NCBI GenBank assembly: GCA_951406725.2
Contig: OX597831.1
Location: 52,080,001 to 52,144,000 of the forward strand
Length of the DNA: 64,000 bases
Origin: Octopus vulgaris
Lineage: Eukaryota
Reading direction: 5' to 3'
In this document: one piece after another, positions 17,924 through 57,676 of the stretch
Position numbering within the stretch: the stretch's first letter is position 1
Layout of the letters: every line of letters starts with the position of its first letter
Notes under the pieces: generated by a model
What the model was told of the DNA's origin: nothing
Database searches by the model: none
The model's input: the letters and a program-made list of their open reading frames with translations, nothing else
Position numbers and translations under genes: made by a program

Positions 17924-18688
17924 GATGTATTATTACCATTATTAATGATATTAATAAGGTAATAATAAGGTGGCCATCAAGTTCACACCATTACAAGCAC
18001 AATATAAGGCAAATTTAGATACAGTAGGGTATATAATACCACTTGCTAAAATCAGAGCCAAGGCTCAAAAGGCACCAGAAACTCACAATAAAGATATATA
18101 TGAGCAATGCAATGAACATATGGGGAAAAGGCTTACCTTTGCATTGAATACATCAGTAAGTAATGTATATTTCAATGTCAATTGATTTCACCCTCTGTAT
18201 GACCAGCATACTTTGGGATCTTCAGTTGAAAATAACTTTTTAACATTCTATTTCTAAAATATGCACTACATTAGCTCGTGTGTGTTCCTTACTTTAAACA
18301 TCCTGCTCCGTTTAAAAGAAAACTATTGTGAGGAAGAATAAATTTTCAATATAGATGTATTATTACCGTTATTAATGATATATATTAATGAGGTAATGAT
18401 AAGGTGGCCAGCAAATTCAGGTATATAACACCACTTGCTAAAACCAGAGCCAAGGCTCCAAAACCACCAAAGCCTCACAATAAAGATACACACGAATATG
18501 TTGGTCGTACAGAGGGTGAAATCAATTGGCATTGAAATATACATTACTTACTGATGTATTCAATGCAAAGGTAAGCCTATTTCTCATATGTTCATTGCAT
18601 TGTTCATGTGTATCTTTATTGTGAGTTTCTGATGGTTTTCGAACTTTGGCTTTGATTTTAGCAAGTGGTATTATATACCCTACTGTAT
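17924..18688. repeat. Three copies of one unit (two direct, one inverted) carrying a hammerhead-like motif; Penelope pseudo-LTR-like
   Basis: 17924-18231 and 18355-18491 are direct copies; 18496-18688 is inverted; minus-strand CUGAAGA..GAAA motif at 18170-18231. Confidence 0.75.
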
Positions 18689-18992
18689 ATATATATATAT
18701 ATACATACACATACACACACACTATATATATATATATATATATATATATATATATATATATATATATATATATATATATATGTGTGTGTGTGTATATATA
18801 TTATATATATATATCATTTATATATAATATGTATATGTTTATATAAAAAATATATATATAATATATAAATATATATATATATATATACATACATACACCC
18901 ACATACATACACCCACATACATACACACACACAAATACACATACATATATATACATATATATATTTATATAAACTCTCTATTCTATTGCCAG

Positions 18993-19060
18993 AATCCATT
19001 TGTCATGCTTGGTTCCACTCTACCAGATTCCAACATTATCACCTTTTACAAAGAAAACAG
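18993..19060 (+). CDS. VWA8: VWA8 exon 5 (NPFVMLGSTLPDSNIITFYKEN)
   Basis: tgccag acceptor and AG|gtaaat donor; phase 0 to 2 exactly bridges the flanking exons. Confidence 0.8.
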
Positions 19061-19719
19061 GTAAATAAATCTTCATTACTTAATTAAACTGACCAAATTA
19101 AACGAGATTTTGTTTCATTTTTGTTTTCTTTTCTTGTTTTGTGTTTGATTTTTTTTTTGTTTTTACAACAAAGCATCAAAATTTTTGGATGTGTAGGCGA
19201 GGATGAGTAGGAAGTTGTAACATTAATGCTTTTTCTAAGAGCATCAATAATGTTTAGTGAAGTGAGATGAATGCAGTTAGTTAAGGACAATTAACCCTGA
19301 CTCAGAGCATTTTCCAAAAATATTCTGGCTGCAGCCATCTTGTAGTCTTAGAGGGTCACCTAGCTTGGGTGTATTTAATGTGTGTCTTTATTGTTAAAGA
19401 TGGCTAGATATGATTTAAGGGATTTCTGCTGTTCAAGCTGGTTGAGCAATCATCTAGAGGTTCCTGGTAGCTGTTGGGTTAGACTCTTCGGTCATCTCTC
19501 ACAGGTCAATATCACTGTTATTTCTTCTTCCCATGTATGTGACCTTTGTGTGGATGTTAAAATTCATCATCATCATCTTCATTTAGCATCCACTTTCCAT
19601 GCTGGCATGGGTTGACTGGAACTGGTAAGCCAGAGAGCTTTACAAGATTCCAGTTTGATTCGGCATGGTTTCTATGGCTGGATGCCTTTCCTTGATGAGT
19701 ATAGCGGGTGCTTTTACAT

Positions 19720-19990
19720 GACACCAGCACAGATACTTTTACGTATTATTGCCACGGGGGCAATTACATGTCACTGACATGTATGCTGCTATGTGTCACT
19801 GGCATGGGTACTTTTACATGTTACCTGCACAGGTGCCATTACATGTCACTGACATGAGTGCTATTATGTGTCACCGGCACAGATGCTTTATGTGCCACTG
19901 GCACAGGTGCTTTGCATGTCACCTGCATGGGTGCTATTACATGTCACTGACATGAATACTAGTATGTGTCACTGACATGGGTGCTTTTTC
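19720..19990. repeat. ~24 bp tandem repeat (TACATGTCACTGACATGGGTGCTAT-like) inside a SINE-like element
   Basis: About ten degenerate units; a similar array lies at 46205-46360. Confidence 0.7.
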
Positions 19991-20354
19991 ATCATCATCA
20001 TTTTTAAAAAATATACTTTTCCATACTTGCATGGGTTGGATGGAGTTTACCAAGGCAAATTTTCTACAGCCAAGCACTCTTCCTATCACCAACCCTTATT
20101 TGTTTTTCAAAGAAGGCAGTATTTCTGTGTAAACCATGGTCAGATAAGTTTATACAGAATGTTGGAAATGAATGACGTTTGTTTACAACAATTAAGCAAT
20201 ATCAAGATAAGGAAACACAAACATACTCACACTCACACGTAACTAGCACTCCATCAGTTATGATAGCAAGAGTCACTTCCCTCATAAAAACTATAAAAAT
20301 CAACACATAAAAGTGTATGTATGTATACATATAGTTAATATTTGAATGTCTGGT

Positions 20355-20560
20355 GAAGGTGCATGGCTCAGTGGTTAGAGTGTTGGACTGACAATCATGA
20401 GGTAGTGAGTTCAATTCTCAGACTGGGCTGTGTGTTGTGTTCTTGAACAAGATACTTTATTTCCTATTGCTCTAGTTCACTCAGCTGTAGAAATGAGTTG
20501 CCCTTTTTGCCTTTACTATGGACAACATTGGTGGCATGGAGAAAGGAAACTGGTGGGTGT
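20355..20560 (+). mobile_element. Second tRNA-derived SINE family (GGTGCATGGCTCAGTGGTTAGAG head)
   Basis: A/B boxes plus GTTGTGTTCTTGAGCAAG central domain; other copies near 28845-29160, 36101-36410 and 39815-40135. Confidence 0.75.
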
Positions 20561-55600: not shown

Positions 55601-55621
55601 TATCTTTGTGGTACCAGTGCC

Positions 55622-56450
55622 GGTGGCACACAAGAATACCATCCGAACGTGGGCGTAGCCAGTACCGCACCGACTGGCCTCCATGCTGTGGGCACGTAAC
55701 AATCACCATCCAATCGTGGCCGATCGCCAGCCTAATCTGGCTCCTGTGTCGGTGGCACATAAAAAAACACCATCCGAGCGTGGTCGTCTGCTAGCCTTGT
55801 CTGGCACCTGTGTCGGTGGCACATAAAAACACCATCCGAGCGTGGCCGTTCGCCAGCCTCGTCTGGCACCTGTGTCGGTGGCACATAAAAACACCATCCG
55901 AGCGTGGTCGTCTGCTAGCCTTGTCTGGCACCTGTGTCGGTGGCACATAAAAACACCATCCGAGCGTGGTCGTCTGCTAGCCTTGTCTGGCACCTGTGTC
56001 GGTGGCACATAAAAACACCATCCGAGCGTGGCCGTTCGCCAGCCTCGTCTGGCACCTGTGTCGGTGGCACAAAAAAATACCATCCGAGCGTGGTCGTCTG
56101 CTAGCCTTGTCTGGCACCTGTGTCGGTGGCACATAAAAACACCATCCGAGCGTGGCCGTTCGCCAGCCTCGTCTGGCACCTGTGTCGGTGGCACATAAAA
56201 AACACCATCCGAGCGTGGTCGTCTGCCAGCCTTGTCTGGCACCTGTGTCGGTGGCACATAAAAACACCATCCGAGCATGGCCGTTCGCCAGCCTCGTCTG
56301 GCACCTGTGTCGGTGGCACATAAAAAACACCATCCGAGCGTGGTCGTCTGCCAGCCTTGTCTGGCACCTGTGTCGGTGGCACATAAAAACACCATCCGAG
56401 CGTGGCCGTTCGCCAGCCTCGTCTGGCACCTGTGTCGGTGGCACATAAAA
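55622..56450. repeat. GC-rich 62-bp minisatellite (11 well-conserved and 2 diverged units) inside a SINE-like element ending in (TGA)n near 56620
   Basis: Unit starts at 55751, 55815, 55877, 55939, 56001, 56063, 56125, 56187, 56250, 56312 and 56375. Confidence 0.92.
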
Positions 56451-56676
56451 TCACCCACTACACTCTCGGAGTGGTTGGCGTTAGGAAGGGCATCCAGCTG
56501 TAGAAACACTGCCAGATCTGACTGGCCTGGTGCAGCCTTCGGGCTCCCCAGACACCAGTTGAACCGTCCAACCCATGCTAGCATGGAGAGCGGACGTTAA
56601 ATGAAGATGATGATGAAGATGATATATATATATATATGTACACATACACAGACACACATACACACACACATATATA

Positions 56677-57135
56677 TATAGTTTAGGACAATTAGTAAGT
56701 TGTCATAATAGGACTCAGAGTTTCAAATGTTGGAGCTAAGAGCTACAATGCATTCTCATTTGCTATTATGACAATAGACACTATAAAAAAACCATTGAAT
56801 ATATTATATGTGTGTGTGTGTATACGTGTATGAATACGTAAATGTACATATATGTTTGTGTGTGTATGGGCAAATACATATATATGTTTGTGAGTGTGTA
56901 CATATGTAGACATTATAAACGCAGGAGGTTTTTATGTCTATGTATTGTGAGAATATGGTTGCATGTATTTTTTAAATATTTTTTCCTACCTACTAGAGTA
57001 ATTTCCATTTTATTCAATGGATTTTTTATAGCGTTTATTGTCATAATAGCTGATGAGAATGCATCATAGCTCTTAGCTCCGGCATTTGAAACTCTGAGTC
57101 CTATTATGATGACTTACTGATTGTCCTAAACTATA
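56677..57135. repeat. Head-to-head inverted pair of ~125-bp hammerhead-bearing units
   Basis: 56677-56801 is the reverse complement of 57010-57135; the minus copy has the core mutated to CAAAUGA. Confidence 0.85.
57040..57110 (+). ncRNA. Type-I hammerhead ribozyme motif with complete core
   Basis: 10-bp stem I GUCAUAAUAG/CUAUUAUGAU; CUGAUGA; stem II GAAUGC/GCAUUU; GAAA; CUC-U-GAG; GUC site (cleavage after 57100). Confidence 0.82.
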
Positions 57136-57321
57136 AATTCCTCTATTTACCTAATATTGAGGTCTCATTCTTTTGTTTTCATTTATTATTATTATTATTA
57201 TTATTATTATTATTATTATTATTATTGTTATTATTATTATTATTATTATTATTATTATATGTATATATATATATATATATATATATATATATATATTCCA
57301 AGATTGTTTGTTGAAATAGAT

Positions 57322-57676
57322 ATTGTTATACTTAGGGACGGTCATATTTTGCCAATCAAACACACACTGTATATTTGGTCTTCACTTCAGCTTTATTATT
57401 ATTATTATTATTATTATTATTATTATTATTTTAGTTTCTTTGTCAAAAGCTCTTTCATTACACACCCTGTGGCCTCTTCAGCAGCTCTTTATCCCACCTG
57501 TGGACTAAGCGGAGACATGTAGGTTAGAGAGTCACTGAAGAGGTCACAGGATGTGTGACAAAAGGCCTTTGACAGAGAAACTATAATGGTAATAATAATT
57601 TGAAGTGAAGACAAAAAAAAAAAATATAGTGCATGTGTTTAATTGGCAAAATATGACCATTCCCAATTATAACAAT
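57322..57676. repeat. Palindrome of two head-to-head hammerhead-bearing units (57442-57485 minus, 57531-57573 plus)
   Basis: Plus arm GUCA-CUGAAGA-G-GUCAC/GUGAC-AAAA-GGCC-UU-UGAC (GAAA decayed to AAAA); minus arm keeps CUGAAGA and GAAA. Confidence 0.8.

What the first reader, a model, noticed from the sequence alone, without database searches (positions are those of the whole stretch)
17924..57676. Recurrent architecture: hammerhead units paired head-to-head with their own antisense copy
Seen: the same layout (minus-strand copy on the left, plus-strand copy on the right, 5' ends facing) recurs in different families at 18355-18688, 37904-38070, 56677-57135 and 57322-57676, and more weakly at 34566-34769 and 53731-53893. 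Established: Penelope-like insertions often have an inverted pseudo-LTR at the 5' junction, and coleoid cephalopods show very high ADAR editing. Inference: in the pre-mRNA each pair folds into a long duplex that would mask the sense ribozyme and could be edited. This would work as a built-in antisense lock, letting such insertions persist in introns and possibly coupling editing to cleavage.
Basis: partly seen in the sequence, partly recalled or inferred. Interest (0 to 1): 0.72.

Follow-up and report, generated by a model that had tools for sequence, protein, structure and literature searches.

The report
Head-to-head Penelope retroelement end fragments
These are old end fragments of Penelope-like jumping genes in the introns of an octopus VWA8 gene, and their mirror-image pairing is the known shape such elements likely take when they insert, not a lock evolved to silence their hammerhead ribozymes.

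Summary
All six inverted pairs are real. They lie in introns of a plus-strand VWA8 gene and belong to six repeat families whose majority sequence holds a type I hammerhead. Family F joins an RT + GIY-YIG frame, so it is a Penelope-like element (PLE); the other five are PLE ends by anatomy only. Across 152 genomic loci, 88 have a head-to-head partner and 1 a tail-to-tail partner; 72 of 82 scorable pairs carry the PLE 'tail' on exactly one arm. This layout is published (PMC3846280, PMC4209133, PMC8557442). The antisense-lock reading fits only 1 of 6 pairs (56677-57135). In two pairs the sense arm lacks the core, in two it is broken, and in one the partner misses the ribozyme. Unpaired intact sense hammerheads sit in the same gene (14413, 51730). 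Covered cores are not more often intact (7/15 vs 25/61, p=0.77). A young coding PLE with no detected hammerhead pairs the same way (18 vs 0). Editing could not be tested. Earlier scan notes describe similar head-to-head PLE insertions in other genomes. Verdict: real, ordinary, already explained.

The parts
8579..63186 (+). Host gene VWA8: 20 exon matches; all six pairs lie between exons (C 16265-18993, E 32630-34949, D 37247-39644, F/A/B 53443-57864)
   Evidence: 80-aa exon stretch 100% identical to an Octopus sinensis VWA8 record
17918..18260 (-). Family C left arm with tail; hammerhead core at 18225, broken at 16.1
18348..18496 (-). Family C second, partial minus-strand piece (repeat of tail and 3' end); no core
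18497..18694 (+). Family C right arm, no tail; begins after the CUGAAGA half, so no sense ribozyme
34517..34710 (-). Family E left arm with tail; U3-A8 hammerhead core at 34699 (antisense to VWA8)
34712..34769 (+). Family E right arm, 3' end only, no ribozyme
37855..37984 (-). Family D left arm with tail; core broken
37990..38074 (+). Family D right arm; core broken (GAAA lost)
53695..53759 (-). Family F left arm: last 43 nt plus tail; does not cover the ribozyme
53759..53905 (+). Family F right arm; U3-A8 core letters kept at 53773, stem II disrupted. In other copies this end follows an RT + GIY-YIG frame
56674..56801 (-). Family A left arm, no tail; core broken
56802..57178 (+). Family A right (long) arm with tail 57136-57178; intact type I hammerhead, core at 57050, predicted cut after 57100; predicted to be fully paired with the left arm
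57297..57501 (-). Family B left arm with a short, partly deleted tail (called with its own sequence as reference, not with the longer reference); core letters intact, stems damaged
57505..57676 (+). Family B right arm; G12 lost (at a CpG)
14371..14497 (+). Unpaired sense family A copy with the family's core (CCGAUGA) and stems, in a VWA8 intron
51700..51850 (+). Unpaired sense minimal hammerhead (core at 51730) of a seventh family (G), in a VWA8 intron

Best explanation
The six pairs are decayed 3' ends of hammerhead-bearing repeat families, one joined to a Penelope-like RT-endonuclease frame and five likely Penelope-like by anatomy, and each mirror pair was likely made in a single insertion event. 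Likely mechanism: the element's endonuclease nicks AT-rich or (TA)n DNA on both strands, and reverse transcription from the two nicks starts at the element's two adjacent start sites. This would give two 5'-truncated copies joined at their truncated ends, one with the tail and one without. The hammerhead lies 66-204 nt from the element's end, so most copies carry it. Afterwards the arms decay without detectable selection. Duplex formation in VWA8 pre-mRNA is predicted, and editing of it would be a by-product. Shown here: layout, tail asymmetry, the coding link for F, decay. From the literature: two-strand cleavage and two start sites (another PLE, in vitro). Inferred: how the two cDNAs are joined.
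For: Head-to-head 88 vs tail-to-tail 1 among 152 de-duplicated loci; 32 of 81 in the three families searched with one arm only. Tail on exactly one arm in 72 of 82 scorable pairs, both 1, none 9; 40.6 expected if arms were independent (66 of 82 with a shorter B reference). Family F continues upstream into RT (DKG, YVDD motifs) and GIY-YIG coding sequence shared among copies (Pfam RVT_1 E=1.6e-10 and GIY-YIG E=1.7e-5). A young 784-aa PLE gives 18 head-to-head clusters and 0 tail-to-tail among 129 loci, and no hammerhead was found in the two copies scanned. Paired arms differ by 9-22%, mostly at private changes. G.U vs A.C on the VWA8 strand is 37 vs 26, p=0.21. [quoted passage not shown]
Against: No coding link was found for families A-E. 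None of 18 long loci chosen for A, B, C, E and F gave one. Among 30 further A loci, 3 had PLE-protein matches: one examined was not shared with other A copies, one is on the opposite strand, and one was not checked for contiguity. D was not walked. G.U leans above A.C in the window (37 vs 26) and intact cores lean towards covered arms over all six families (24/45 vs 43/97, p=0.37); neither is significant, but power is low. Loci could not be split into intronic and intergenic. Samples are the top 40 hits per search. The joining step is untested.
Confidence: 0.88

Rival explanations
1. Antisense lock: pairs are kept because the inverted arm masks a sense ribozyme that would otherwise cut host pre-mRNA, possibly released by A-to-I editing.
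For: Pair A has an intact core and is predicted to be fully masked. [quoted passage not shown] Retrozymes are under-represented in Xenopus introns (bioRxiv 10.64898/2026.07.22.740005).
Against: Only 1 of 6 pairs fits. Unmasked intact sense cores lie at 14413 and 51730. In family G, 19 of 30 loci are intact and none of those is paired within 1.5 kb. Covered vs not covered intact cores: 7/15 vs 25/61. The layout also occurs in a PLE without a detected hammerhead. A single min-HHR did not cleave (PMC4209133), and the anole PLE hammerhead needed its protein (PMC11167929). Family A's majority core is CCGAUGA (11 of 23; CTGA 5), so the canonical core at 57050 may be a CpG decay product.
Confidence: 0.05
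2. Same origin, different step: the pair arises by fold-back or self-priming at the 5' junction of one cDNA, as proposed in PMC3846280, rather than by priming from both target strands.
For: Family D junctions are near-perfect palindromes at about the same place in most of 18 pairs (the query was itself the palindrome). Palindromic junctions are the basis of the published proposal.
Against: A simple first-strand fold-back would put the tail on the long arm (my inference). Observed 18 long vs 23 short, or 15 vs 11 without the query-biased family E.
Confidence: 0.3
3. The pairs are MITE-like DNA elements with terminal inverted repeats, or chance neighbours of abundant repeats.
For: D copies recur as ~165-bp palindromes; the families have 195-1647 first-look candidates.
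Against: Arm lengths and junctions vary, many copies are single, tails are on one side only, orientation is 88 vs 1, and F has a PLE frame.
Confidence: 0.04

Closest known systems
Insertion units of endonuclease-positive Penelope-like elements with inverted pLTR and one-sided tail (PMC3846280, PMC8557442)
   Same: Head-to-head inverted ends, tail on one arm, 5' truncation, microsatellite-flanked ends, hammerhead near the 3' end; C-terminal GIY-YIG in family F.
   Different: Here only short, decayed ends remain; tails run about 45-60 nt or more in several families against the published 30-40; no coding part was found for A-E.
Minimal type I hammerheads of metazoan PLEs (PMC4209133)
   Same: Short palindromic helix III, extra base after A9 (B, E, F, G), U3-A8 swap (E, F), opposite-strand pairs a few hundred bases apart.
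   Different: Family A has a U4C majority core; C and D close stem II with a pyrimidine mismatch. Both variants are described elsewhere (PMC3088659), not in the PLE paper's passages that I read.
Non-LTR retrozymes
   Same: Type I hammerhead, PLE-derived, non-coding.
   Different: Retrozymes are head-to-tail tandem arrays; these are inverted pairs or single copies.
Inverted intronic repeats as ADAR substrates (Alu pairs in humans, recalled; repeat editing in squid, PMC9068888)
   Same: A long imperfect duplex is predicted in pre-mRNA.
   Different: Both arms come from one insertion; editing at these sites is not shown.

Membership tests
EN+ Penelope-like element | Single frame with PLE-type RT and GIY-YIG endonuclease upstream of the end module (family F) | tested here: met
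   RT and GIY-YIG in F copies, stop about 60 nt before the hammerhead; decayed, no single intact frame seen.
EN+ Penelope-like element | Same feature, families A-E | tested here: inconclusive
   No contiguous coding part in the long loci or the 30 A loci; D not walked. The GIY-YIG frame in L031 is a separate young insertion.
EN+ Penelope-like element | Inverted 5'-truncated copy, head-to-head | tested here: met
   88 vs 1 of 152 loci.
EN+ Penelope-like element | Optional tail at one end | tested here: met
   72 of 82 pairs; window tails served as references for five families.
EN+ Penelope-like element | Clade placement (Neptune, Poseidon, Nematis, Hydra) by RT tree | not tested
   No tree built; F shows DKG and a cysteine-rich linker before the endonuclease.
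Type I hammerhead ribozyme | Core CUGANGA...GAAA...UH or a described variant, with stems I-III | tested here: met
   Met in all six family majorities and in the copies at 57050, 14413, 51730; not met in most other window arms. No Rfam hit.
Type I hammerhead ribozyme | Self-cleavage | not testable with these tools
   No assay; no pile-up of read ends, with depth 0-2 over the ribozyme.
Non-LTR retrozyme | Head-to-tail tandem units each with a hammerhead | tested here: not met
   No such array at the six places.
Selected antisense lock | Intact sense ribozyme covered by its partner | tested here: not met
   1 of 6 pairs.
Selected antisense lock | Enrichment of partners over intact cores in introns | tested here: inconclusive
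   No enrichment without regard to gene context; no annotation available to split the loci.
Selected antisense lock | A-to-I editing in the arms | tested here: inconclusive
   almost no reads from this locus.

The most novel reading that the evidence does not exclude
In octopus introns, the inverted arm of a Penelope-like insertion works as a selected antisense lock on an active hammerhead, as at VWA8 56677-57135, and ADAR editing of the duplex can free the ribozyme and cut the host pre-mRNA.
Probability: 0.04. Interest if true: 0.65.

Novelty: new member of a known kind. Interest (0 to 1): 0.17.

Why it matters
As found, it is a clean octopus example of a published retroelement architecture. 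One number is useful: the tail is on exactly one arm in 72 of 82 pairs, so the two ends of an insertion are not made independently. That constrains models of PLE insertion, which is still unresolved. If the lock were real, it would be a natural link between A-to-I editing and ribozyme cleavage in a host transcript, but the evidence here points away from it.

Tried and rejected
Rfam scan: no hammerhead among 127 matches. A strict descriptor found only 57050 and one doubtful hit at 17758; it misses U3-A8 and mismatched stem II variants. The GIY-YIG frame in L031 first looked like family A's, but it is a separate young PLE inserted at a (TA)n stretch; rejected as a link. Walking A, B, C and E upstream gave no coding link. 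RNA test: no RNA holder listed. Three raw RNA runs, whose species label differs from that of the best holder, and one contig set were laid on 56680-57182 only. Reads at 95% or more identity were 19 of 201, 6 of 147 and 6 of 123. A>G vs T>C places were 5:5, 4:4 and 3:5. Depth over the ribozyme was 0-2. This is inconclusive, not evidence against editing. Strand-free test for duplex selection: chi2 103.5, df 88, p=0.12. Control inverted repeats in the window: G.U 112 vs A.C 110. The idea that F is a Naiad with a hidden hammerhead was dropped, because its endonuclease is C-terminal. Atlas search gave only a VWA lead. The Lunse 2017 paper was not held. No earlier notes exist for this genome.

Full report
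Setting. An 80-aa exon stretch is 100% identical to an Octopus sinensis VWA8 record. That protein maps to 20 plus-strand exon matches between 8579 and 63186, so the plus strand is the pre-mRNA and all six named places are intronic. The genome is 2.8 Gb.

Observation. Inverted repeats are present at all six places with the stated orientation. Rfam lists no hammerhead among 127 matches. I searched the genome with each place (each scores only the best 40 candidates) and got 167 loci. Fifteen were dropped as the same pair seen twice or as duplicates of one insertion, leaving 152. Each family's majority sequence holds a type I hammerhead with a short, palindromic stem III. A has a U4C core, B an extra base after A9, C and D a pyrimidine mismatch closing stem II, and E and F the U3-A8 swap plus the extra base. 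U3-A8 and the extra base are described for PLE hammerheads (PMC4209133; passages and parts 1-2 of 4 read). U4C and a U10.1-U11.1 mismatch are described in PMC3088659 (passages).

The window's own copies. C: the plus arm starts after the first half of the core; the full core is on a minus arm at 18225 and is broken. E: only the minus arm has the ribozyme. D: both cores are broken. F: the plus arm keeps the core letters but stem II is disrupted, and the partner covers only the last 43 nt. B: the plus arm has lost G12. A: the plus arm is intact and, folded with its partner, has pairing probability 0.0 for stems I and II. So one pair in six matches the proposed lock. Two unpaired sense hammerheads with cores and stems lie in other introns of the gene, at 14413 and 51730.

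What the elements are. Walking family F upstream reached RT, thumb, a cysteine-rich linker and GIY-YIG sequence shared among copies and ending about 60 nt before the hammerhead (Pfam). F is therefore an endonuclease-positive PLE. A-E share the end anatomy but gave no coding link; A has at least 1.7 kb of shared body with no PLE-protein match in the four long copies tested. An apparent link for A proved to be a nested young PLE.

Architecture across the genome. Within 1.4 kb, 88 of 152 loci have a head-to-head partner and 1 a tail-to-tail partner. In A-C, searched with one arm only, it is 32 of 81. D, E and F are inflated by queries that held the junction, and more distant partners are missed. 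Of the 88 pairs, 6 lack one end. Of the other 82, 72 have the tail on exactly one arm, 1 on both and 9 on neither, against 40.6 expected for independent arms. The tail is on the long arm in 18 and on the short arm in 23 of the pairs where this could be told. The young 784-aa PLE forms 18 head-to-head clusters and no tail-to-tail cluster among 129 loci, and a relaxed scan found no hammerhead in two of its copies. The layout does not appear to need a ribozyme.

Tests of the lock. Intact here means the 12 core letters, with U4C and U3-A8 allowed; stems were not scored. Arms whose core is covered by the partner are intact in 7 of 15 cases against 25 of 61 for the rest (A-C, p=0.77), and 24 of 45 against 43 of 97 over all six families (p=0.37). 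In the 51730 family, 19 of 30 loci are intact, 1 of 30 is paired, and no intact one is paired. Paired arms differ by 9-22%, mostly at private changes. On the VWA8 strand the six duplexes hold 37 G.U and 26 A.C (p=0.21); eight other inverted repeats hold 112 and 110. These tests are small, use top hits, and ignore gene context outside the window, so a weak effect is not excluded. The RNA lay was uninformative: few reads came from this locus, and A>G did not exceed T>C. Editing of such duplexes is plausible from squid data (PMC9068888, passages).

Literature. PMC3846280 (passages) describes inverted pLTRs, a tail optionally on one of them, and head-to-head as the most frequent arrangement; it proposes self-priming. 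PMC8557442 (passages) shows the same structure, including in Naiads that lack canonical hammerheads. PMC4209133 reports hammerhead pairs 100-700 bp apart on opposite strands and no cleavage by a single minimal motif. PMC11167929 (parts 1-2 of 4) shows cutting and extension of both target strands, two RT start sites bounding the tail, and a protein-assisted hammerhead. PMC6765202 (passages) reviews dimer dependence. The retrozyme preprint was read as part 1 of 5 and passages. Seven searches (listings only for the papers not named above) showed no paper proposing an antisense lock for natural PLE hammerheads and none on octopus PLE hammerheads. I opened no supplements; those of PMC8557442 and PMC4209133 may list cephalopod families. 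Three earlier scan notes from other genomes describe related PLE structures; they are leads, not support.

Mechanism. Most likely each pair is the product of one insertion, primed from both nicked target strands at the two start sites. The joining step is inferred, and fold-back remains a live alternative. The hammerheads are passengers because they sit 66-204 nt from the element end. Masking of the A copy is predicted but incidental.

Verdict. Observation partly confirmed; the lock is not supported; new octopus members of a known kind; interest 0.17.

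Noticed in passing
window 57133-57177: The family A tail matches a far more abundant repeat: RNA depth about 90-150 against 0-2 on the ribozyme. In those reads it is preceded by a 3'-splice-site-like end and followed by the reverse complement of a 5'-splice-site-like motif (the splice reading is recalled consensus).
   Followed up: no
L217:3672-6023 and loci: Young PLE family with many open 784-aa RT + GIY-YIG frames, mostly 94-97% identical over the endonuclease, and no hammerhead detected; probably recently active.
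   Followed up: partly
window 49005-49893: Decayed PLE fragment (RT thumb and GIY-YIG-like part) on the plus strand, 56% identical to the young family over 130 aa.
   Followed up: partly
window 53960-55293: Inverted repeat of 421 nt, 90% complementary, in an RT-coding retroelement fragment; a longer duplex than any hammerhead pair in this gene.
   Followed up: partly
window 18568-18577 and 53808-53817: Families C and F carry a 5'-splice-site-like AAG|GTAAG shortly after the hammerhead, perhaps the pLTR intron (motif recalled).
   Followed up: no
family A, window 57050 and 14413: Majority core is CCGAUGA (11 of 23 loci); the canonical CUGAUGA (5 of 23) may arise by CpG decay.
   Followed up: partly
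families D and E: Many 5' ends fall about 5-25 nt before the hammerhead core and D junctions are palindromic; the queries held the junction, so this is biased.
   Followed up: partly
window 55609-56455: 62-bp tandem array, about 12 copies, 90% matches.
   Followed up: no
L004, L009, L010, L011, L019: One family A insertion is present five times with shared flanks, four on C17 and one on C60: segmental duplication or assembly redundancy.
   Followed up: no
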